A program made the position numbers and the translations under genes. A stretch of DNA of 60,243 nucleotides, filler included. It is 5 parts of 5 records of this genome, joined end to end, with 100 filler letters (N's around TTAATTAATTAA, not from the genome) between each part and the next. Parts side by side here need not be neighbours in the genome. Positions count along the whole stretch, not along the records: positions 49,897 to 60,243 come from SRR31156797_5017; 4 more parts are not named here. The stretch is one strand, 5' to 3'. Shown in pieces: positions 49,897-60,243 of the stretch (its first letter is position 1; each line of letters opens with the position of its first letter). Under the pieces are notes generated by a model that worked only from the letters and a program-made list of their open reading frames with translations, did not search any database and was not told where the DNA came from.

Positions 49897-49897
49897 T

Positions 49898-50656
49898 AAA
49901 GGGGATACGCTCAAGGGGCTTGCCACAATTGGAAACGGAGAGGATCCCTTAAGCAAACGGATTAACGAGACGATTGCGACGGGCCTCAATAAAGGCGTCG
50001 AGCTTGCTTATGAAAATTATCCCGAAGAAACAAAGCAGACTTTGGAACTGCTCGACAAGCTAGGCAGCAAAGTCGATGCGACCTTGACCTGGGTCGATGA
50101 GACATCGGGAAAAAGAATAAGCAAGACATGGAATTCTCTGGACGAAGATACGAAGGGCTTGCTCAAATTGGGCGGCAAAGCTTTGGGCATGACAGTTTCA
50201 ATCTCAAGTGCAGGCGTTGGTACGTTAGCGCATTTGAAGAAGGTCCAAGCTGTTGCAAAGGCTGTTGACAAGGTTGTACCGGATAGTGTCAAGAACTCGA
50301 AGGTGGTTAAGGCGCTAGCTGACGTTGGCAATGATTTAAAGGTCCCGTGGAATTCTTGGGCTGGTTACATAAAACAAGTCGAGAATGGTAGAGAGTCTGC
50401 TCAAGTTGGGAATAGGCTGTATTCTCGCCATGCTGTTGATCGCATGCAGCCTAGTGGATTAGGTGCCCCTGCCGGGACTATTGGGGCCGGCAGGAATATT
50501 TCACCAAACATTGTTGAATATGTGATTGGAAATGGGACCAAATCTACAAAAATAGTGAACGGCGTTACTAGAACAATTCATTCGGCAGGAGATGTAAAGG
50601 TTGTCACTGAAGACCATGGTAGAATAGTTATTACTGTATTAAGGGGGAGGCGGTAA
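49898..50656 (+). CDS. C-terminal part of a CdiA-like polymorphic toxin, probable BECR/DUF4258-like RNase tip
   Basis: frame open from contig edge; ends YSRHAVDRMQP..GRNISP..VE..I..G......VVTE..GRIVITV; followed by a small acidic ORF. Confidence 0.72.
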   Translation, partial: KGDTLKGLATIGNGEDPLSKRINETIATGLNKGVELAYENYPEETKQTLELLDKLGSKVDATLTWVDETSGKRISKTWNSLDEDTKGLLKLGGKALGMTVSISSAGVGTLAHLKKVQAVAKAVDKVVPDSVKNSKVVKALADVGNDLKVPWNSWAGYIKQVENGRESAQVGNRLYSRHAVDRMQPSGLGAPAGTIGAGRNISPNIVEYVIGNGTKSTKIVNGVTRTIHSAGDVKVVTEDHGRIVITVLRGRR

Positions 50657-50662
50657 CTAATC

Positions 50663-50959
50663 ATGCAAGAAGATGTTTTAAAAGAGCAGATAGAAAGAAG
50701 TTGCAACCGACATTTGAGAGGCGATCTTTCAATTGAAGAATTTCAATGGGAATTGAGGAATATTGAAAACTCTATTACTTCAATAGAATACAATGAGATA
50801 AGAACGTATCTTGCAGAAACTGAAGGAGAATTAGAGTTGATATTATATACGGAAGAACCATTCATTCAGACGAGGTTAAGCTATAGGCTGGCAATGAATG
50901 TGGTGAAATGGCTGAACCAACGCAAAATACAGGAAAAACAGATAGATCATACCAAGTAA
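50663..50959 (+). CDS. Putative cognate immunity protein (CdiI-like)
   Basis: 98 aa, acidic, low GC, starts 6 nt after the toxin stop, RBS GGAGG. Confidence 0.65.
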   Translation: MQEDVLKEQIERSCNRHLRGDLSIEEFQWELRNIENSITSIEYNEIRTYLAETEGELELILYTEEPFIQTRLSYRLAMNVVKWLNQRKIQEKQIDHTK

Positions 50960-50980
50960 GCCCCACCAATAATAGATAAT

Positions 50981-51005
50981 AGGCCCGGCTCAGTCCGGGC
51001 CTTTC
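50981..51005 (+). terminator. Terminator after the immunity gene
   Basis: AGGCCCGG-CTCAGT-CCGGGCCT-TT. Confidence 0.75.
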
Positions 51006-51021
51006 TCTTGCTCTTTGACAT

Positions 51022-51117
51022 AGCCTGACCATCAACACCGACGTTGGCACTGCCATCAACGGCGGCGACCTTGGCGAGAATTTGATCGCGAATCTGCACG
51101 GGGCGACGGTGTCCAGT
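51022..51117 (+). pseudogene. Relic cdiA fragment (DUF637-like)
   Basis: GC-rich start-less patch SLTINTDVGTAINGGDLGENLIANL. Confidence 0.55.
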
Positions 51118-51570
51118 CAAAGTCAAAGGTAGTAAGCGCTGAGAATGGGAAAATTATTTTAACGTATTTTTGCAGTGACCTTCGAGATCCGTTGGTTGTT
51201 GACGGTAACAACACTGAAAGCGGCTTCTTTTTCATGAGCCGGGTCGATCAATCCTTCGCTAAAGTCTATATGGCTTGACGTGCTCCTAATAAGGATTGGA
51301 TGGACTTTTTTTTAAAGAGTACTTTTGGAGCTATTGAGGTGCTCAATCCAGGGAATTCAACAAACTTGTTTCAACTTTTTTGAAACGGAAGAGTAGGGCT
51401 GCATGAGTTGTGAGTTTAGTCCAATAACTTCAAATTTGTAGTTCGCTTTCAACTCGTTGTTTTGTGGCCCAATAAGGTCGCCCTTCTTTTGAGTTGCTAT
51501 GAGTCGAAAAGTAAATTATAGTTTCTAAAAAAGGATAAGAAATAAATTTTAATTACTCTGGAGAAAGTCG

Positions 51571-51918
51571 ATGAGTCGATCAGCAGCAGCAGGCAAAGCC
51601 ATCTCCCCGGCAGCAGTTCGTACTCTTGAGAAGGTTGGTGCCAACATCAAGAAAGCTCGGCTGCGCCGGAACATTACCCAAAAAGACCTGGCTCGGCGAG
51701 CCTCGACCAACCATGTTACTTTGGGCAAGCTTGAAAGAGGCGAACCCACTGTCGGGTTAGGTGTGCTTGTTCAGGTCCTTGAAATCCTTGGGCTGCTCTC
51801 AAACTTAGAATTGTTGGCCAATCCCAACGATGACCAACTCGGCGTAGCTCTTGAGGAAAAAAACCAGCGCCAGCGTGCCGGCAGCAAACGCAATGCAGAT
51901 GAAGCCTTGGACTTTTAA
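51571..51918 (+). CDS. XRE/HTH antitoxin (HipB-like)
   Basis: GANIKKARLRRNITQKDLARRA...LGKLERGEP; directly upstream of hipA. Confidence 0.85.
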   Translation: MSRSAAAGKAISPAAVRTLEKVGANIKKARLRRNITQKDLARRASTNHVTLGKLERGEPTVGLGVLVQVLEILGLLSNLELLANPNDDQLGVALEEKNQRQRAGSKRNADEALDF

Positions 51919-51927
51919 GGATAGCTT

Positions 51928-53193
51928 ATGGCTCAAGATATTACATTCGTATTTATTTCGATAGAAGGACATTTTGTGCCAGCCGGACGACTTCAAATGT
52001 CGCACTCTGGAGAGGCCGTTCATTTGTCCGAGTTTTCGTATGGTCGCAGATATCTTGAACGTAAAAACGCCATCCCCATTGACCCTAACGAACTTCCTCT
52101 CACACTCCGAACATATTCCACCATAGGACAATTTCGTGCATTTCAGGATGCTAGTCCGGATGGATGGGGGCGGCATCTCCTTGATCTGGCAGCCGAAGAA
52201 TATGGTGTAAAGCCTACCGAATTTGATTATTTAACTGTTCTTGATCAGGAAAATAGGATTGGGGCCTTGGCATTTGGTCCAGACCCCAGAAAGCGGCCAG
52301 AGCCAACCACCCCTCCATGGCGGCCTGATATTGTCCATGGGGATACTCTTGATCTTGGCGAGATGATTCGTGTTGCAGATCTTGTTCTTAGCCATGAAAA
52401 ACTTGCCCCGGAACACAGACGATTCCTTGTCCGGGGATCTTCCGCCGGAGGGGCTCAACCCAAGGCTGTTGTCGAATATGAAGGCCGACAATGGATTGCT
52501 AAATTTTCACGAGAATTTGAATATTGGCCGACGTGTCGCATTGAGTTGGCCGCCATGAACTTGGCAGCTTTGTGCTCGATACGTATTCCCGAATGTAAAG
52601 TCATTGAAGTAAGTGGTCGTGACGTCTTTCTTGTCGAGAGGTTTGACCGTAGTCGTGATCATATTCGTCACCACTTTTTGTCTGCGATGACACTCGTTGG
52701 TGCTCAGGACATGACCGAAGGGGCCTATGGAGACATTGCACGAGCTATTCGACGATATGGGGTTGCTGATTATGTCAAAGATGATTTGGTGGAACTGTTT
52801 CGCCGAATGGTCTTCAATATCCTTTGCAATAACAACGATGACCACCTCAAGAACCACGGCTTTCTGTATGACCCCACGAGTAAGATGTGGAGGTTGTCGC
52901 CCGCCTACGACATCGTTCCCCAACCCCGTGAAAATACTGATGGCCATGGCTTTTTGACTCTCGAAGTTGGTTCGAAAGGTCGATTAGCCACGCTTGAGAA
53001 TGCATTGTCTCGATGTGAAGAATTTGGACTCAACAAAGATGAAGCAACTAAGATAGCTTCTGAGGTTAAGAATATAGTCTCTCACCGGTGGGTCTCCGAG
53101 AATCGGAAAGCCCTTGTGCCGGAAGAAAAGATTCGGCTCGTAGAAGAAGTTTACCGTGAGGCAGAGGCCAGCTCGGTTCTTTGGACCTCTTAG
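51928..53193 (+). CDS. hipA: HipA family Ser/Thr kinase toxin
   Basis: PDGWGR, RIGALAF, GSSAGGAQPKA, VERFDR, NNDDHLKNHGF, LSPAYD. Confidence 0.92.
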   Translation: MAQDITFVFISIEGHFVPAGRLQMSHSGEAVHLSEFSYGRRYLERKNAIPIDPNELPLTLRTYSTIGQFRAFQDASPDGWGRHLLDLAAEEYGVKPTEFDYLTVLDQENRIGALAFGPDPRKRPEPTTPPWRPDIVHGDTLDLGEMIRVADLVLSHEKLAPEHRRFLVRGSSAGGAQPKAVVEYEGRQWIAKFSREFEYWPTCRIELAAMNLAALCSIRIPECKVIEVSGRDVFLVERFDRSRDHIRHHFLSAMTLVGAQDMTEGAYGDIARAIRRYGVADYVKDDLVELFRRMVFNILCNNNDDHLKNHGFLYDPTSKMWRLSPAYDIVPQPRENTDGHGFLTLEVGSKGRLATLENALSRCEEFGLNKDEATKIASEVKNIVSHRWVSENRKALVPEEKIRLVEEVYREAEASSVLWTS

Positions 53194-53370
53194 CAGCGAA
53201 TTTAAGAGTGTCTCGTCGAGATGAGTTAATCAGGAAGTCGGACGAGAGGAATTGAGAAATATCTGTGAGCCACCTCTGAGACGTTGCTTTCGAGGGTGAG
53301 TAATTTTTTCTTGCCATAAGAAAACCGCTCCTGGTTGTTTCCATTTTCAAGAATCCCAGAAGCGGCTTTA

Positions 53371-53416
53371 CTTAACAACTTTATTACTCACTTAAAAAAT
53401 TTATTACTCACCCACA
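53371..53416 (-). mobile_element. Tn7-like transposon end, right-end type (two contiguous TnsB-type sites)
   Basis: reverse complement TGTGGG-TGAGTAATAAATTTTTTAAG-TGAGTAATAAAGTTGTTAAG. Confidence 0.75.
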
Positions 53417-53420
53417 CAGG

Positions 53421-53566
53421 TGTGGGCGAGTAATAAAGTTCTTTTGTCGAAAGTCCAGAAGTTCTTGTTTCTCGGTGACGAAAACGAAGTCTGAGTAATA
53501 AAGTTCTTAAGTGGGAGGGGTGACAACTCGAAAAGGGTACAAGTTTTGAGTAATAAAGTTTTTAAG
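53421..53566 (+). mobile_element. Tn7-like transposon end, left-end type (three spaced TnsB-type sites)
   Basis: TGTGGGCGAGTAATAAAGTTCTT at 53421; TGAGTAATAAAGTT.TTAAG at 53492 and 53547; compare Tn7 terminus TGTGGGCGGACAATAAAGTCTTAAA. Confidence 0.8.
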
Positions 53567-53924
53567 TGCCAATTGGCGAGGCGGGGGTAGCCGATGAGTG
53601 TTTTGTTTGAATTTTGGGAACACGGTATTTAATTGGGCTAGATTTTTCCTTTCGCCCTGTATCTCTACTCATGTCCTTGGTAGATACTAAATTGGGTAAA
53701 TGAAGCCGCTTTCTAGTGCTTGTATTATTAAGCAAGCCAGGAGTGACTTATGCAAAACGAAGAAAAGCCTTTCTCGATTAGCCGTTCGAAATTGTTATTT
53801 TTGAATTGAGCATTCCGATAATCTGAATAGCCTCAAAAAAATTAATGTAATTATCTATACGCTTGACGCCGATAATTATTTAATGCAGGAATTTCTCACT
53901 TGTTGAGCTTCCGGGGTGGAACTT

Positions 53925-54005
53925 CAGCAAACCATAAAGCCAAATTCGTCGTGAGGCGAAGACGGAAAGCCACGGGTCTTAAGAAGATAGCCGGGTTGCT
54001 AGGGA
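53925..54005 (+). ncRNA. c-di-GMP-I (GEMM) riboswitch
   Basis: GCCAAA-TTCGTC-GTGA-GGCGAA-GACGGAAAGCCACGGGTCT..AGATAGCCGGGTTGC, in the 5' UTR of cdiB. Confidence 0.88.
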
Positions 54006-54113
54006 TCTTACTCTATTCTTACCCTTCAGTCCTCTTTTCTCACCTTTGGTTTTCTCATAATTATTTTGAGTTTAGTGCAATCCGTTGTTCGGGTGCTCAA
54101 AGGTGAGATGTTT

Positions 54114-55841
54114 ATGATTTGGGATAAAGCTAGTGCTGCAGCTTTGTTTTTTTGTGCTTTGTTATTTGTTTTTCCGGGGAGTGCCTTGGCCCAGTCCGTT
54201 CAAGACGCTGGGCGCGTGCAAGAGCGTATCATTCAGCGAGAGGAAGAGCGTCGTCGAATACTACAGGAACAGCTCGAACAACAAACTAAACAACCCCCTT
54301 CAGGTGTTGAATTACAGAAAGAGCCTCCGGTTGAACCCATAGACGGAGCGACCTGTTTCGATGTTCGTCGAATCAATCTAACCGGCGTGACGTTGATCCC
54401 TGTCAGCATCCTTGATGATTTGACCAGCGAATACACTGGCCGTTGCCTGACCTTGGCGGACATCAACGAGTTGCTTAAGGCCATCACCAACGAATATGTT
54501 GCCCGCGGCTATGTGACCTCCCGGGCCTATTTGCCGGAGCAAGACATCTCGAGTGGTGTCCTTGAACTGAAAGTCATTGAGGGGCGCATTGAAGACATCA
54601 CGCTGAATGACGGTATTGGCAAGCAAAATCAACTTTTAGGTCCTTTTATGGGGCTTGTAGGCGATCCTCTTAACCTTCGTGACCTTGAACAAGGGCTGGA
54701 TCAATTCAACCGTTTGGCCTCAAATAACGCTACGATGAAATTGGTACCTGGCAACAAGCCAGGGCAGAGCATCGTTGCTATTACAAATGATCCTGACACG
54801 AGATGGCGCATATCATTGGGCTGGGATGATTCCGGCCAGGATTCCACTGGCACAAATCAGTATTCACCACAATTCGAGAAGGATAACTTTATCGGATTCA
54901 GCGATATGTTGTCTCTGAATTATTCGGCCACACCTCTTCCTTGGGAGTCTTCCAGGCGAGCAAAGAACAGCCAAAGTCTTTCTGCTTATTGGTCTCTGCC
55001 ATTGGGCTATTGGACGGTTAGCTTATTCGCTAGTAAATTCAATTATAATACGATCCTTTCGGGCATGACTCAGGAGTTCTCCAATAAGGGCGAGACCTGT
55101 TTTCAATCACTGGGGATCGACCGTGTAATCCATCGTGACGCCGACAGCAAAACGTCCTTGGGAGTCGGTGTGGAACATCGCAAGGTGGAAAGTTGGATTG
55201 AGGGTGTTCGATTGGTGGCTAGCAGCTATGAAACCACCGACGTCGGCCTTAAGGCCAGCCATACACGCCGTTTGCTTGGCGGATCGTTGAGCATGGGGCT
55301 CGAATATCATTGGGGTGCAGATTTTTTAGGCTCCTCAGAGCCTCTCGATGGTGAGGGGGTACCCACTCCCCAATATACAAAGTGGGAAGGGAACCTGAAC
55401 TATTACCATCCTATTTCTTTTGGTGGTCAATCCCTGATGTGGAGCTCGATTCTTCGTGCTCAGTATAGCCACGATTCCCTTTATAGTGCTGAGCGTATGT
55501 CGATCGGTAGTCGTTATACGGTTCGTGGATTTTCGATCGATAGCCTGAGTGGAGATAGCGGGGGATATATTCGTAACGAACTCTCCTGGCGGTTGCCTTT
55601 TCAGAACTACTACACCGATAAAATCTCGGCTTGCGAACTGTTCGCGGGATATGACTATGGGATGATCCTTCGCGACGAGAATGACCCTTATGAGCGAGGC
55701 TGTTTGCAGGGAATTGCCTTGGGCCTGCGTACTTTTGGCAAGTTGAGCGCCAGTGCGACTATTGCCAAAGCCATAGCCGCACCTGATTTTCTCGAAAAAG
55801 AAAACTTTGAAATCTATAGCGCTGTGACTGTGACATTCTAG
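54114..55841 (+). CDS. cdiB: TpsB/CdiB (ShlB/FhaC/HecB) outer-membrane transporter
   Basis: signal peptide, POTRA (ITNEY..RGYVTSRA), LNLRDLEQGLDQ, SIGSRYTVRGF, terminal Phe. Confidence 0.93.
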   Translation: MIWDKASAAALFFCALLFVFPGSALAQSVQDAGRVQERIIQREEERRRILQEQLEQQTKQPPSGVELQKEPPVEPIDGATCFDVRRINLTGVTLIPVSILDDLTSEYTGRCLTLADINELLKAITNEYVARGYVTSRAYLPEQDISSGVLELKVIEGRIEDITLNDGIGKQNQLLGPFMGLVGDPLNLRDLEQGLDQFNRLASNNATMKLVPGNKPGQSIVAITNDPDTRWRISLGWDDSGQDSTGTNQYSPQFEKDNFIGFSDMLSLNYSATPLPWESSRRAKNSQSLSAYWSLPLGYWTVSLFASKFNYNTILSGMTQEFSNKGETCFQSLGIDRVIHRDADSKTSLGVGVEHRKVESWIEGVRLVASSYETTDVGLKASHTRRLLGGSLSMGLEYHWGADFLGSSEPLDGEGVPTPQYTKWEGNLNYYHPISFGGQSLMWSSILRAQYSHDSLYSAERMSIGSRYTVRGFSIDSLSGDSGGYIRNELSWRLPFQNYYTDKISACELFAGYDYGMILRDENDPYERGCLQGIALGLRTFGKLSASATIAKAIAAPDFLEKENFEIYSAVTVTF

Positions 55842-55850
55842 GAGTATGAG

Positions 55851-58800
55851 ATGAAAGCCAATAGAATTTCCAACCAATTGCTTAGTGTTATACTGTCATG
55901 TCTTATCGTTTTTCAGCCCGGCTTTATCGCCATGGCTGGAGACCGTCCTACAGTGGTCGATCCGACCGCCCCTGACGGAAAGAAGCCGATAATTGACCAA
56001 GCTGCAAATGGAGTTCCTATTGAGCTGATCGCGACTCCGGGCAGCGGTGGGGTTTCTCACAATCTGTTCACCGATTTCAACGTGAATAAAATTGGTTTGA
56101 TTATTAACAACAGTCAATCAATGGGGCAATCACAGCTGGGTGGCATCATCGCTGGGAATCCCAATCTCAAAGGGGGAGAGGCGCGTCTTATCTTGAACGA
56201 GGTCACTGGCGCTAATCGTTCTCATCTTGAAGGGTATACAGAGTTACACGGTGGCAAAGCTGATTATATATTGGCAAACCCAAATGGTATTACCGTCAAC
56301 GGTGGTGGATTCATCAATTTCCCTCAAGTAACTCTGACCACGGGCAAATCCTGCTTCGGTACGGGGGGACTAGAAGGAATTGATGTTCGCTCTGGTGATA
56401 TTTTGGTCGAGGGCGCAGGTGTCAATGCTACCAATATAGACGCTTTTACACTGCTTGCGCGTGCGACCCAAATCAATGCTGCTATCCACGCCAAGATTCT
56501 GACTATCGCAGTCGGGCAGAATGCATATAATCCCACCGATGGTTCCATAACTGCCTTGGCGCCAGACGCCACACTCACTCCTTCTGTTGCCATTGATTCC
56601 AGTGCGCTGGGAGGTATGTACGCTAGACGTATCGTGCTCCAAGGTACCGAGGCCGGGGTCGGGGTTAATCTTAAAGGCATCATCCAGGCCGTGGACTCAT
56701 TTGAGTTGACGGCAGACGGGCAAATTCGTCTAAAAAATAAAACGACTGCCGGAACCGATATTCAAATTCGTTCTCAGAACGGTGGTGTAGAAATTAATGA
56801 TACAGTTTATGCGGGGGGAGCTGCTCTTGTAAGCGCCGCGGATGCTCTCAACATACGTCAGGGTGCGTCTGGTGATACCTCCATGGTCGGGGCTGCCGGA
56901 CATCTCACGTTGTCTGCTGCTTCCGTTAACGCTGTAGATGGGAATATTACTGCGGGGCTACAGACGGATGGAAGTGTATCTGGTGGGACCTTGTCTGTTA
57001 TGGCAGCCAACTCGTTGACCACAAAAGATTCGAAACTCGTTTCCGGTGGTAAATTGTCTATAGCTTCGTCTGATATTTCTATTGATGGTGGCAGCGTTGC
57101 AGCCGTAGAGAAATTGAGTATTCAAGGATCTAATTCAGGTGATGTCGTTATGACCGGTGCGGCTGAATTGTCCTCGTTGAATGCCATGGATGTTGAAGCA
57201 CGTTCCTGGACTGCGGCCGATGGTTTGCTGAAAGCAAATGGTTTGTACTTTTCGTTGATTGGCGATCTTAACCTAGGAAGTGCTGTTCTGAATTCCACCG
57301 GGACGCTGACCTTGGAAGCGAACTCGCTGGCGACCGGCGCAGGTGCTTCCATTACGAGCTTCGCAGATATGGTCTTGGCCTTGGATGCGCTCCAAAACAA
57401 TGGTGGTCTGATTTACGCTGGCGACGAACTGAATTTGAACGTCCGCAGGCTTGATAACACCTCCGCAGGCTATATCGTCGGGGTCAATGGTGTGGACGTC
57501 AGCGGACAAACCGAAGGTTCCCGTGCCGCGCTGATCAGCAACAACCAGTCGGTGATCGAAAGCCTCGGCGGCTCCGTGAATATCGCGGCGGAGAGTCTTG
57601 AAAATATTTCTGGTGCTGCGACCATCACGACACAAGATGCTGGCTGGATTTACTGGAGCATGGGCTTCCCGGCGGATTTTCCCGGCTTCAATGCCGACGG
57701 CACAAGGAATGTCTTCAGTGAAGCTGGTGCGCGATTGTACCAAAACAAAGGAGGGGTAAACGCACACCTTCAGTATATCCTGGAAACATACGGCCTGCCC
57801 TGGCACCGTCCGTACGATGGCCGCACCTTGCAGGAATGGATTCACACCACCGAAGAGATCATTGAAAACGCTGGCGTGACAGCCGAGATACTGTCTGCCG
57901 AGAATATGGTCATTGATGCTGACACAATTCTCAATGACCATGGCATCATCTCCTCCGGCGCCGACCTGACAATCACCGCCAATTCGCTGACCAACCGGGG
58001 TGTCGAACTGAGCCGCAACCTCGACTTTTACCGCAACTTCCACCAGGTGCACGACAGCGGAAGCCGTAGTTACGGCCAGGTTCAGCAGCATTTTGAACTC
58101 TCGCAAGTCACCAGCTCCGATCCGGCTGTTGTCGCGGCGGCAGGAACACTGACCGTCAATGTGCCGGGACATGTCAACAACGAAAGCTTCAAGGAAGGCG
58201 AACAGTACACGGGCAAGTTTGCGGGGAACGCTGCATACTCAGATCTGGAAGTCACAGGGCCGCTCAAGGATCCCGATACGGGTGAACCCGTCAATACGAT
58301 CACCGTCTCCCTCCCGACAGGCGTGGGATCCCTGTATGTCGTGAACAAGAACCCGGAACAGACATACCTCATCGAGACCAACCCGGCGATGACCAATGTC
58401 GGTAACTTCTATGGCTCACAATACTTCTTTGATGAAGTCGGGGTAAATGTTGCCGATCTGAACAACCAGATTTTAGGCGATGCCTTTTTTGAAACCAATA
58501 TGGTTCGTAAGCAGATTCTCAAGGCGACGGGAAAACGCTACCTGAACCCGACCTATACCAGTGACGCCGATCAATTCCGCCGACTCATGGACAATGCGGC
58601 CCAGGCCAAGACCGAGTTGGGGCTTGAAATCGGCGTGGCCCTGAGCGCGGAGCAATTGGCGGGTTTGACCGAGGATATCGTCTGGTACGAAACCCGCGAG
58701 GTCATGGGCAAGAAAGTCCTTGTGCCCGTGGTCTACCTAGGGTCCGTGTCCCAGGCCAATCTGGACCTCACACGAGGCGCCATGCTCACGGGCGATTCCG

Positions 58801-60243
58801 TGAACATCAAGACCGCCGAACTGGACAACAGCGGTGGCATTGTCGGGCAGAATGTGACCGTTGAAGCCGACAATGTCAGAAACAGTGGCGGCGACATGGC
58901 CGGACAGACCCTGAATGTCACGGCCGGCAAGGACATTATAAACAGTAGCGGTTCGATCAGAGGCAAGGACGTCTCTCTCTCAGTCGGTCGCAATGTCGCC
59001 ATTGAGACAAAGACCGAACAGCGCCGGGACGGGGCAACCGATTCCCATTCCTACGTGCATCAGACCGCTGACGTGACCGCCTCCGGCGATCTGAATATTC
59101 GTTCGGGAGCCGACACCAAGGTCCGGGCTGCCAAACTGTCGGCTGACGGCACGGCCTCCATTGACGCGGATGGCGACGTGACCATCGGCACCAAGGCCGT
59201 TACCGAACACATTGAAGCCATGTATTACAAGGCCGACCAAGAAAGCCACATGGGCTCCAAGGTCAAGGCAGGGAGCCTGGACATCACTTCCGGCAAAGAT
59301 GCAACCGTGGCTGGCAGCTCTCTCGACGCAACCGGCGACGCCTCCATCAGTGCGGCGGGCAACGTCGCCATCATGGGCGTAACCAACTATTCCGAGTCGG
59401 AACATAAGCGTTCCACCTCCGGCGGCATGTTCGGAGGCGGAGGCACCAAGCGGGTTCACGCGGAAAAGAGCCGGGTCACCCGGTCCTCGGTCACAGCTGA
59501 CGGTCATGTAACCATCAACGCAGGCACTGATACGACGGATGCCGGGAAAGGTAATCTGGTCGTGATGGGAAGCGGAATCGAGGCTGGCGGCAACGCGACC
59601 CTGAACGCAGAGGGAGAAAGCATTGTCGGCTCCATGAAAGAGCGCACGTATCGGGACGATTCCGGCTCCTCCTCAGGACTGTTCTCATCCTCCAAGTCCA
59701 AGGAAACTCTTGATGAAAACAGCTTGGTGGGCAGTTCCGTCACAGCCGGACAGGATGCCCGGCTGACCGCTGGCTCCGGCGTGGCGCTGGACTCCAGCGC
59801 CGTCAAGGCGGGCCGGGCCGTAAAACTGACAGCCAAGACTGGCGATGTGATCATTTCCAGCGGCCAGGACACCTACGCCCACCATGTTGAAAAGAGCAAG
59901 TCCGGCTTCATGGGCACCGGCTCCATGGAGCTGCGGGACAAGCAGTCGGTAACCACCGTCCGCAGCGAAATCGAAGCTGGCAACAAGGTCGCCATCGAAG
60001 CCAAGGAAGACGTGACACTCCAGGCCGCACGCATCACTTCCGGCGACACCACCGAGATCACGGCCAAGGACGGCCAGGTCGCCATGCTCGTGACCAAAGA
60101 CAGCGTGTACGAACGCAATATCAAGTCCAAGACCAGTTTTTTCTCTTGGTCCTCCAAAGACGAAGGAACGCACGACGAAACGGTCCGTCATACCGAAATC
60201 AACGCCGCAGGCGGTCTGACCATCACCACCGCCGAGGGCATCC
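55851..60243 (+). CDS. cdiA: TpsA/CdiA filamentous haemagglutinin-like exoprotein (runs off window end; absent from ORF track)
   Basis: signal peptide, TPS domain (GVSHNLFTDFNV, NPNL, ILNEV, ANPNGI), GGMYA, YP-like region (YLIETNP..LGDAFFE..DIVWY..VLVPVVYL), FHA-2 repeats. Confidence 0.92.
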   Translation, partial: MKANRISNQLLSVILSCLIVFQPGFIAMAGDRPTVVDPTAPDGKKPIIDQAANGVPIELIATPGSGGVSHNLFTDFNVNKIGLIINNSQSMGQSQLGGIIAGNPNLKGGEARLILNEVTGANRSHLEGYTELHGGKADYILANPNGITVNGGGFINFPQVTLTTGKSCFGTGGLEGIDVRSGDILVEGAGVNATNIDAFTLLARATQINAAIHAKILTIAVGQNAYNPTDGSITALAPDATLTPSVAIDSSALGGMYARRIVLQGTEAGVGVNLKGIIQAVDSFELTADGQIRLKNKTTAGTDIQIRSQNGGVEINDTVYAGGAALVSAADALNIRQGASGDTSMVGAAGHLTLSAASVNAVDGNITAGLQTDGSVSGGTLSVMAANSLTTKDSKLVSGGKLSIASSDISIDGGSVAAVEKLSIQGSNSGDVVMTGAAELSSLNAMDVEARSWTAADGLLKANGLYFSLIGDLNLGSAVLNSTGTLTLEANSLATGAGASITSFADMVLALDALQNNGGLIYAGDELNLNVRRLDNTSAGYIVGVNGVDVSGQTEGSRAALISNNQSVIESLGGSVNIAAESLENISGAATITTQDAGWIYWSMGFPADFPGFNADGTRNVFSEAGARLYQNKGGVNAHLQYILETYGLPWHRPYDGRTLQEWIHTTEEIIENAGVTAEILSAENMVIDADTILNDHGIISSGADLTITANSLTNRGVELSRNLDFYRNFHQVHDSGSRSYGQVQQHFELSQVTSSDPAVVAAAGTLTVNVPGHVNNESFKEGEQYTGKFAGNAAYSDLEVTGPLKDPDTGEPVNTITVSLPTGVGSLYVVNKNPEQTYLIETNPAMTNVGNFYGSQYFFDEVGVNVADLNNQILGDAFFETNMVRKQILKATGKRYLNPTYTSDADQFRRLMDNAAQAKTELGLEIGVALSAEQLAGLTEDIVWYETREVMGKKVLVPVVYLGSVSQANLDLTRGAMLTGDSVNIKTAELDNSGGIVGQNVTVEADNVRNSGGDMAGQTLNVTAGKDIINSSGSIRGKDVSLSVGRNVAIETKTEQRRDGATDSHSYVHQTADVTASGDLNIRSGADTKVRAAKLSADGTASIDADGDVTIGTKAVTEHIEAMYYKADQESHMGSKVKAGSLDITSGKDATVAGSSLDATGDASISAAGNVAIMGVTNYSESEHKRSTSGGMFGGGGTKRVHAEKSRVTRSSVTADGHVTINAGTDTTDAGKGNLVVMGSGIEAGGNATLNAEGESIVGSMKERTYRDDSGSSSGLFSSSKSKETLDENSLVGSSVTAGQDARLTAGSGVALDSSAVKAGRAVKLTAKTGDVIISSGQDTYAHHVEKSKSGFMGTGSMELRDKQSVTTVRSEIEAGNKVAIEAKEDVTLQAARITSGDTTEITAKDGQVAMLVTKDSVYERNIKSKTSFFSWSSKDEGTHDETVRHTEINAAGGLTITTAEGI

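What the first reader, a model, noticed from the sequence alone, without database searches (positions are those of the whole stretch)
49897..60243. Candidate non-autonomous mini-Tn7-like element carrying a CDI weapon plus HipBA, circular or tandem
Seen: the contig begins inside the 3' end of a cdiA (toxin plus immunity) and ends inside the 5' part of a cdiA. Permuting at the end junction gives left end - riboswitch - cdiB - cdiA - cdiI - hipB - hipA - right end, with no transposase next to either end (in Tn7, tnsA lies beside the right end). Inference: either one excised circle or a tandem array of mini-elements, each with its own CDI locus, mobilised in trans and stabilised by a toxin-antitoxin pair. 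A circle-forming CDI element is known in Burkholderia thailandensis (IS-bounded). I do not know of a Tn7-ended version, but I cannot search to confirm novelty.
Basis: inference. Interest (0 to 1): 0.85.

Follow-up and report, generated by a model that had tools for sequence, protein, structure and literature searches.

The report
Mini Tn7-like element carrying CDI genes
A small relative of the jumping gene Tn7 that has lost its own transposase carries a bacterial contact-killing system plus a toxin-antitoxin pair, and here its two ends sit back to back, most likely because such elements pile up at one chromosomal landing site.

Summary
The "contig" is the last of five contigs joined in the window (49897-60243). 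It reads: cdiA 3' toxin tip, small ORF, hipBA, tnsA remnant, right end (RE), CAGG, left end (LE), c-di-GMP riboswitch, cdiB, cdiA 5' part.

The ends are true Tn7-family ends. They have TGT/ACA tips, three spaced sites on one side and two abutting sites on the other. The same tips flank tnsABCD elements next to glmS in other bacteria.

A same-species-level chromosome (G328) carries the permuted order once. It is a 12,547-bp unit with no transposase, 7 nt past a GlmS-like gene. Three other chromosomes carry cdiBA units with such ends and perfect 5-bp duplications at other sites. So a non-autonomous, CDI-carrying mini Tn7-like element is well supported.

Circle versus tandem is not settled:
- **For tandem:** abutted ends with 4-8-bp spacers occur inside large chromosomal contigs of relatives. 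In one the spacer equals the att duplication.
- **For a closed cycle:** the graph path through the joint is unbranched, and both halves match the single G328 element.

I favour chromosomal head-to-tail stacking (about 0.55) over a circle (about 0.3). This is a new variant of a known kind, of moderate interest.

The parts
49898..50656 (+). 3' end of a cdiA gene, open at the contig start. The polymorphic-toxin C-terminal domain is about aa 146-249 of the fragment (nt ~50333-50644).
   Evidence: Translation. No Pfam or NCBIfam family. Its C-terminal ~100 aa are 57-66% identical to the C-termini of large TPS/DUF637/VENN and Rhs proteins.
50663..50959 (+). Putative immunity gene (cdiI), 98 aa, starting 6 nt after the toxin stop.
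   Evidence: ORF. No family found. Only 2 homologues turned up. The assignment rests on position only.
51025..51114 (+). Short cdiA-like fragment left behind by a toxin-cassette replacement.
   Evidence: It resembles 60216-60240 (repeat D5). It also resembles a 740-bp, depth-307 contig of run X1. Translation.
51111..51278 (+). 3' remnant of a 212-aa gene that is intact in G328.
   Evidence: 97.8% identical to G328 250613-250798. Its reading frame matches the C-terminal part of the G328 212-aa ORF.
51571..51918 (+). hipB (HTH antitoxin).
   Evidence: Pfam HTH_3, 3e-9.
51928..53193 (+). hipA (kinase toxin).
   Evidence: Pfam HipA_C, 1e-51, plus Couple_hipA. 97% identical to the G328 protein.
53177..53317 (-). 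tnsA remnant: codons 1-19 fused to about 107-136 of TnsA.
   Evidence: tblastn with TnsA of autonomous relatives: 63% identity over 19 aa (E 2e-4) and 42-50% over 24-33 aa (E 2e-4 to 2e-3). The same remnant is present in G328.
53370..53416 (-). Right end (RE): two abutting 20-bp TnsB-type sites, with the tip ...CACCCACA at 53416.
   Evidence: Other contigs in runs X1, X12 and X3 diverge exactly after 53416.
53417..53420 (.). 4-bp spacer CAGG between the two ends.
   Evidence: It equals the G328 att duplication ACAGG minus one A.
53421..53568 (+). Left end (LE): tip TGTGGGCG, with three sites at 53427, 53492 and 53547.
   Evidence: The X12/G328 flank joins at 53421.
53930..54004 (+). c-di-GMP-I-GGC riboswitch aptamer in the cdiB leader.
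   Evidence: Rfam RF03167, 64.5 bits (gathering score 59), E 1e-13. Found upstream of cdiB in 11 of 20 relatives' loci scanned.
54066..55841 (+). cdiB (TpsB outer-membrane transporter).
   Evidence: Pfam ShlB 7e-90, POTRA_2, POTRA_3. 99% identical to the G328 protein.
55851..60242 (+). 5' part of cdiA (1,464 codons), open at the contig end.
   Evidence: Pfam TPS 4e-47, Fil_haemagg_2. 98-100% identical to G328 up to ~58,900, then 67-72%.

Best explanation
The contig spans the joint between the right and left ends of a Tn7-family element that has lost its transposition genes. Only a tnsA stump remains.

The element's cargo has two parts. One is a contact-dependent inhibition locus (cdiB-cdiA-cdiI) behind a c-di-GMP riboswitch. 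The other is a hipBA toxin-antitoxin pair.

The element is a discrete mobile unit of roughly 11-12.5 kb. It must be moved in trans by TnsABC+TnsD of autonomous relatives with matching ends. These insert it 6-7 nt downstream of a GlmS-like gene, or elsewhere, with 5-bp duplications.

In this assembly RE abuts LE because elements of this family stack head to tail at the att site. The 4-bp spacer is what is left of the att duplication. The contig breaks inside cdiA at both ends because a conserved cdiA segment occurs more than once in the sample.

- **Shown:** the anatomy, the family of the ends, the single-copy form in a relative, the duplications in relatives, and abutted ends inside chromosomes of relatives.
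- **Inferred:** trans-mobilisation, stacking (not a circle) in this organism, and the stabilising role of CDI immunity and hipBA.
For: **The ends belong to the Tn7 family.**
- They have TGT...ACA tips, 3 spaced sites against 2 abutting sites, and 5 sites where 0.47 are expected.
- The same 20-nt tip stands beside tnsA-tnsB-tnsC-tnsD in L008 (all four Pfam-confirmed) and beside a canonical glmS in L019.
- In the bacterial family of the relatives, 28 of 401 genomes have TnsA hits. Of 19 near-full-length tnsA loci, 14 have the tip motif (up to 4 mismatches) about 100 nt upstream, and 6 have it with up to 2 mismatches.
- The window keeps a tnsA stump 99 nt inside RE.

**The element exists as one unit.**
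- G328 has one element at 241143-253689 in the order LE-riboswitch-cdiB-cdiA-Ank-212aa-IS scrap-hipBA-RE. These are the only two ends in that 3.7-Mb contig. RE lies 7 nt after the stop of a GlmS-like gene.
- Contigs of run X12 show the same structure.

**It is mobile.** cdiBA units with these ends have perfect 5-bp duplications in G125 (CCTAT), G196 (CTTGT) and G255 (CCTCT).

**Elements of this family stack.**
- Ends abut inside large chromosomal contigs with these spacers: G001 GGATT (identical to the duplication next to its GlmS-like gene), G196 TTTTT, G005 AGTGA, G158 8 bp.
- 4-bp spacers occur in a 65-kb Methylobacter contig (L012) and a 7.7-kb metagenome contig (L084).
- The window spacer CAGG is the G328 duplication ACAGG less one base.
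- The insertion offset after the stop codon varies between 6 and 7 nt. That variation could yield a 4-bp spacer.

**A free circle is unlikely to persist.** No replication gene is present in the element.
Against: - The public-run contig identical to this one runs through RE-CAGG-LE without a branch.
- Both halves are 96-100% identical to the one G328 element. Two identical stacked copies would therefore have broken the contig at LE and RE. Only a closed cycle, or a linear path linking two different cdiA genes through the shared segment, fits.
- The neighbours of the contig ends have about 2.5-3 times its depth. This is my arithmetic on the first and last bins. It is not a clean 2x.
- The spacer is 4 bp, not 5.
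- Classical Tn7 target immunity should hinder a second insertion beside like ends. I saw passages on immunity in PMC11014353.
- No flank of this element is available in this assembly.
- No cognate helper was found in G328. Its own tnsA-tnsB-tniB/tniQ module has unrelated ends, and the L008 TnsA query did not hit G328.
Confidence: 0.55

Rival explanations
1. Closed cycle. The two cdiA pieces are one gene. The element exists as a circle, or as a pure head-to-tail multimer. It could arise in two ways. TnsA/TnsB-type end joining is one. Homologous recombination between the conserved cdiA segments of stacked elements is the other. The joint RE-4 bp-LE would then be a circle junction.
For: - The path through the joint in the run's contig is unbranched.
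- Both halves are orthologous to the single G328 element.
- The spacer derives from flanking att sequence.
- Circularised Tn7 species made by TnsA+TnsB in vitro are on record. I saw only the title of Biery, Lopata and Craig 2000 in a reference list.
- A circle made between adjacent mini-Tn7 elements is an experimental design in PMC11014353 (passages).
- A circle-forming CDI transposon exists in Burkholderia thailandensis (abstract of PMC6350997).
Against: - No replication function is present in the element.
- A non-replicating circle needs chromosomal donors, and their flank joints would branch the graph just as stacked copies would.
- Tn7 excision gives linear DNA (established knowledge).
- The same kind of joint sits inside large chromosomal contigs of relatives.
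Confidence: 0.3
2. Assembly or amplification artefact. The RE-LE joint is a chimera created by the inverted terminal repeats or by library preparation.
For: The two tips are inverted repeats (24 nt, 88% complementary). Only the run that may be the source holds the joint.
Against: - The arms are shorter and less exact than a 31-mer, so they cannot fold the graph.
- The contig has one uniform word depth of 123.
- The same architecture, with spacers the size of a target duplication, recurs in independent genomes and in a metagenome.
- A second, low-depth contig of the same run also spans such a joint (record 4).
Confidence: 0.05
3. The joint lies between two unrelated large autonomous Tn7-like elements. 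Each has its own tns genes, and the two cdiA pieces have nothing to do with one another.
For: In G125 an autonomous tnsABCD element and a cdiBA mini element lie in one array.
Against: - tnsA next to RE is a 49-codon stump followed directly by hipA.
- The same RE and LE bound one 12.5-kb unit without tns genes in G328.
- No tns gene is found in any other contig of the window.
Confidence: 0.03

Closest known systems
Tn7 and Tn7-like elements at attTn7 (glmS)
   Same: TGT/ACA tips, asymmetric arrays of TnsB-type sites and 5-bp duplications. RE is proximal to a glmS(-like) gene a few nt past its stop. Autonomous relatives with the same tip carry tnsABCD.
   Different: This element has no transposition genes, only a tnsA stump. 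Its att gene is a divergent GlmS-like protein, below the NCBIfam glmS cut-off at 194 against 418 bits. Like ends abut at 4-5 bp despite target immunity.
Degraded Tn7-like elements proposed to move in trans (cyanobacterial array-targeting family, PMC11837452) and laboratory mini-Tn7 or mini-Tn6022 constructs (PMC11014353)
   Same: Intact ends without a working transposase. Mobilisation by proteins supplied from another element (passages seen).
   Different: Those natural cases keep damaged tns genes and are not described with CDI cargo. Here the unit is cargo plus ends, and it recurs with duplications at several sites.
IS2-like composite CDI transposon ('megacircle') of Burkholderia thailandensis (PMC6350997)
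   Same: A CDI locus rides on a transposable element for which a circular form matters (abstract).
   Different: That element is ~210 kb and IS-bounded, its transposase lies inside it, and the circle is shown experimentally. Here the element is ~12 kb with Tn7-type ends and no transposase, and the circle is unproven.
Cargo survey of 6,549 Tn7-like transposons (Benler et al. 2021, PMC8649781)
   Same: Toxin-antitoxin cargo is common. HipA is listed on 51 transposons (passages).
   Different: The main text has 0 occurrences of 'hemagglutinin', 'contact-dependent' or 'polymorphic toxin'. Its supplements could not be seen and may list such cargo.

Membership tests
Tn7-family transposon | Terminal 5'-TGT...ACA-3' with a short terminal inverted repeat | tested here: met
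   TGTGGGCG at 53421 and CACCCACA ending at 53416.
Tn7-family transposon | Several ~20-bp transposase-binding repeats, spaced in the left end and abutting in the right end | tested here: met
   Three sites spaced 65 and 55 nt, against two sites 20 nt apart (three in G328). 5 found, 0.47 expected. The Tn7 pattern itself is recalled.
Tn7-family transposon | 5-bp target-site duplication | tested here: inconclusive
   No flank is present in the window, and the spacer is 4 bp. It is met in relatives: CCTAT (G125), CTTGT (G196), CCTCT (G255). In G328 it is ambiguous between 5 and 6 bp.
Tn7-family transposon | [quoted passage not shown] | tested here: not met
   Only a 49-codon tnsA stump is present. 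So this is a non-autonomous derivative, not a complete member. The feature is met in L008 and G125, which share the tip.
Tn7-family transposon | Site-specific insertion just downstream of glmS | tested here: met
   Met in relatives only. RE lies 6-7 nt after the stop of a GlmS-like gene in G001, G328 and G125, and beside a canonical glmS in L019.
CDI (CdiB/CdiA/CdiI) | TpsB transporter with POTRA and ShlB domains, next to an exoprotein with a TPS domain and hemagglutinin repeats | tested here: met
CDI (CdiB/CdiA/CdiI) | Pre-toxin boundary (VENN or DUF637) before a variable toxin tip | tested here: inconclusive
   The region lies in the gap between the contig ends. Pfam finds neither domain in the G328 homologue. 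Proteins that share the toxin tip do have them.
CDI (CdiB/CdiA/CdiI) | C-terminal polymorphic toxin shared with other delivery systems, followed by a small immunity gene | tested here: met
   The toxin tip is shared with CdiA-type and Rhs proteins. The immunity role of the 98-aa ORF rests on position only.
CDI (CdiB/CdiA/CdiI) | Contact-dependent inhibition of cells that lack immunity | not testable with these tools
   Needs competition assays.
HipBA type II toxin-antitoxin | HTH antitoxin gene directly upstream of a HipA kinase gene | tested here: met
   HTH_3; HipA_C plus Couple_hipA; 9-nt gap between the genes.
c-di-GMP-I riboswitch (GGC variant) | Covariance-model score above Rfam's gathering score, in a 5' leader | tested here: met
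   64.5 against 59 bits, 62 nt before cdiB.
Circle-forming CDI transposon (B. thailandensis type) | IS elements at both ends, and an experimentally shown circle | tested here: not met
   No IS lies at the ends, which are Tn7-type. The circle was not tested.

The most novel reading that the evidence does not exclude
The RE-4 bp-LE joint marks a circular stage, or a circle re-integrated by recombination within cdiA. Through it, transposase-less Tn7-family CDI cassettes would swap their left halves (riboswitch-cdiB-cdiA 5') and right halves (toxin-immunity-hipBA). A helper's TnsA/TnsB would then cut them out again. That would give a Tn7-family element a circle step, and it would sidestep target immunity.
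Probability: 0.15. Interest if true: 0.8.

Novelty: new variant of a known kind. Interest (0 to 1): 0.5.

Why it matters
- **A blind spot in surveys.** Tn7-family elements are usually found through their transposase genes, so units made only of ends plus cargo go unseen. Here such units carry a weapon (CDI) whose immunity gene also penalises loss, plus a toxin-antitoxin pair. They recur at several sites in sulfate-reducing bacteria.
- **How arrays form.** Arrays with like ends abutting at 4-5 bp raise the question of how target immunity is bypassed.
- **If a circle is real.** It would add a new intermediate to Tn7 biology, and a way to shuffle toxin cassettes between elements.
- **Regulation of CDI.** The riboswitch link suggests that CDI in these bacteria is tied to c-di-GMP. 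My one search found no paper that holds both 'c-di-GMP riboswitch' and 'contact-dependent growth inhibition'.

Tried and rejected
- **Own genome:** none is held.
- **Other contigs of the window:** they carry no tns genes, only AMP-ligase, radical SAM, glycosyltransferase, methyltransferase, CbbQ-like and YibE/F genes.
- **Plasmid collection:** only gene-level HipA and ShlB hits at 74-76% identity, no related element.
- **Toxin tip and 98-aa ORF:** Pfam and NCBIfam give nothing. The protein atlas gave leads only, with the best named cluster a colicin-E5-related ribonuclease at 0.86, below the level to trust.
- **Size of the gap in cdiA:** I tried to measure it with proteins that share the toxin tip, but none bridges both contig ends.
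- **Metagenome scan for abutted ends:** one contig only.
- **Runs X2 and X3:** they cover the toxin tip, hipBA and RE but show no cover over cdiB and the cdiA 5' part. Lack of cover is not evidence, so I draw nothing from it.
- **Helper in G328:** its tnsA-tnsB-tniB/tniQ module has no similar ends nearby.
- **Two identical stacked copies:** rejected, because the contig would have branched at LE and RE (inference).
- **One paper search failed** on a term that was too long. I repeated it with shorter terms.
Full report
**What the window is.** The 60,243-base window is five contigs joined by N/TTAATTAATTAA linkers. The first two have about 30% G+C and the last three 45-58%. The finding is the last contig, 49897-60243.

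**Anatomy of the contig.** From left to right it reads as follows.
- A 5'-open ORF at 49898-50656. It has no Pfam or NCBIfam family. Its residues ~146-249 are 57-66% identical to the very C-termini of ~1,900-aa proteins with TPS, DUF637 or VENN domains, and of Rhs proteins. This is a polymorphic-toxin tip.
- A 98-aa ORF 6 nt downstream. It has two homologues only.
- A ~90-nt cdiA-like scrap, then the 3' remnant of a gene that is whole in a relative.
- hipB and hipA.
- On the other strand, overlapping the end of hipA, a tnsA stump: codons 1-19 fused to about 107-136.
- Two abutting 20-bp repeats ending ...CACCCACA at 53416, the spacer CAGG, then TGTGGGCG at 53421 with three spaced repeats. The core motif occurs five times, all here, against 0.47 expected. 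None of 100 shuffles reached five.
- A c-di-GMP-I-GGC riboswitch (64.5 bits, gathering score 59).
- cdiB, then the first 1,464 codons of cdiA.

**The ends are Tn7-family ends.**
- A 20-nt degenerate tip motif found 23 stretches in the species-representative genome collection.
- In L008 (Oleiphilaceae) the tip with three abutting repeats is followed inward by genes that Pfam names TnsA, TnsB (Mu-transpos_C), TnsC and TnsD. In L019 (Methylobacter) it lies beside a canonical glmS.
- In a sample of 401 genomes of the family of G001, 32 carry the tip (63 matches with up to 2 mismatches, against 8 for the reversed control). 28 have TnsA matches.
- Of 19 near-full-length tnsA loci, 14 have a tip-like motif (up to 4 mismatches) about 100 nt upstream, and 6 have it with up to 2 mismatches.
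- G125 shows the full arrangement: GlmS-like gene, RE, tnsA, tnsB, tnsC, and an IS-split tnsD.

**The mini element is a real unit.**
- Contigs of run X12 and the 3.7-Mb contig of G328 carry LE-riboswitch-cdiB-cdiA(1,935 aa)-ankyrin ORF-212-aa ORF-ISL3 scrap-hipB-hipA-tnsA stump-RE as one 12,547-bp unit.
- These are the only two such ends in G328.
- RE lies 7 nt after the stop of a 941-aa GlmS-like gene. That gene has SIS and GATase_6 domains and scores below the NCBIfam glmS cut-off.
- The window is 96-100% identical to G328 over hipBA-RE. It is 98-100% identical from LE to about 58,900, and 67-72% from there to the contig end.
- The toxin tip and the small ORF have no counterpart in G328, whose CdiA ends in a lipase-like motif. 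That is the usual picture of a swapped toxin cassette.

**It moves.** cdiBA units bounded by this end family have perfect 5-bp duplications at three other places.

| Genome | Coordinates | Size | Duplication |
|---|---|---|---|
| G125 | 2764074-2775972 | 11.9 kb | CCTAT |
| G196 | 2364371-2372561 | 8.2 kb (cdiB, cdiA and a 90-aa ORF only) | CTTGT |
| G255 | 2114890-2144087 | 29 kb | CCTCT |

- Local BLAST with TnsA-D references labelled no ORF inside these three units. I did not run Pfam on all G255 ORFs.
- Of the 30 best cdiB loci in the 401-genome sample (47 matches in 38 genomes), 5 have such an end within 1.5 kb. The association is recurrent but not general.

**Stacking.**
- In the complete chromosome G001 the array starts 7 nt after the GlmS-like stop (TAA TT GGATT, then RE). 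Further on, the cdiB-proximal end of a cdiBA unit abuts another end across GGATT, the same five bases.
- G001 has five ends but no TnsA domain hit, only a stump.
- Abutted ends also occur in G196 (TTTTT), G005 (AGTGA) and G158 (8 bp).
- 4-bp spacers occur in L012, a 65-kb contig, and in metagenome contig L084.
- The window's CAGG is the G328 duplication ACAGG less one base.
- The insertion offset differs by one nt between genomes.

**Circle or stack?**
- The run that may be the source gives the same 10,347-bp contig at word depth 123. It runs unbranched through the joint.
- The first and last bins are raised to 156 and 150. By my arithmetic, the neighbours that overlap the contig ends by ~30 nt have depths of roughly 300-380. 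A 740-bp cdiA-like contig has depth 307.
- So a conserved cdiA segment is shared by more than one locus or strain, and that explains both contig ends.
- Two identical stacked copies are excluded, because flank edges would break the contig.
- What remains is a closed cycle, or a linear path in which this RE half and this LE half belong to neighbours whose other halves differ.
- A free circle has no replication gene, and it would need chromosomal donors that should also branch the graph.
- Relatives show the joint inside chromosomes.
- I therefore favour stacking (0.55) over a cycle (0.3), and I regard the point as open.

**Literature.**
- One paper holds both 'Tn7-like' and 'contact-dependent growth inhibition', and it is unrelated (listing).
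- The cargo survey of Tn7-like transposons lists HipA on 51 elements. Its main text has no 'hemagglutinin', 'contact-dependent' or 'polymorphic toxin' (passages). Its supplements were closed and may bear on this.
- Degraded Tn7-like elements possibly moved in trans are discussed for cyanobacteria (passage).
- Target immunity and adjacent mini elements are treated in PMC11014353 (passages).
- The B. thailandensis CDI transposon is IS-bounded, ~210 kb, and forms a proven circle (abstract).
- For the in-vitro circularised Tn7 species I saw only a title in a reference list.
- The role of CDI immunity in keeping elements in place is recalled, not checked.

**Verdict.** This is a transposase-less Tn7-family element with CDI and hipBA cargo. 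It is real and mobile in relatives. Here it was caught at an end-to-end joint whose physical form is undecided.

Noticed in passing
window 1-38018 versus 38119-60243: The window joins contigs of very different composition: about 28-35% G+C in the first two and 45-58% in the last three. More than one organism may be present in the assembly.
   Followed up: no
window 53930-54004; loci L054-L058, L062, L065-L068, L071: A c-di-GMP-I or GGC-variant riboswitch stands just upstream of cdiB in 11 of the 20 relatives' cdiB loci scanned. That includes loci without Tn7-type ends. No paper in the library holds both 'c-di-GMP riboswitch' and 'contact-dependent growth inhibition'.
   Followed up: partly
window ~58,900-60,243: Identity of cdiA to the G328 gene drops abruptly from 98-100% to 67-72%. 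This is a mosaic boundary inside the repeat region, well before the toxin tip.
   Followed up: no
window 51025-51278: Downstream of the small ORF lie a cdiA-like scrap and the truncated 3' end of a 212-aa gene that is intact in G328. These are scars of the event that brought in the present toxin cassette.
   Followed up: partly
G002:C1:3003651-3005135 and G003:C8:81756-83242: These are ~1.5-kb units bounded by the same ends. They hold only a stop-ridden tnsA fragment, an even smaller class of non-autonomous derivative.
   Followed up: partly
L051 (G328:C1:73737-78237): G328 has a second, unrelated Tn7-like module: tnsA, tnsB, and TniB plus TniQ in one ORF call. No similar end repeats lie beside tnsA.
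   Followed up: partly
G001:C1:2880492-2883080: An 862-aa cdiA fragment with hemagglutinin repeats and an Ntox50 toxin domain lies just outside an end of the cdiBA unit. Several DUF637 fragments lie inside the unit. Orphan toxin cassettes accumulate in the array.
   Followed up: no
G196:C1:2372514-2372561: In this 8.2-kb cdiBA unit the end with three abutting repeats (right-end type) lies next to cdiB. That is the opposite polarity to the window.
   Followed up: no
G005:C186:10455-10484 and 64418-64447: Two left ends in one 78-kb contig are preceded by nearly the same flanking sequence. This suggests a segmental duplication within the array.
   Followed up: no
L065 922-995: A tRNA gene lies ~320 nt upstream of the riboswitch-cdiB leader in another relative, which may be a different integration hot spot.
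   Followed up: no
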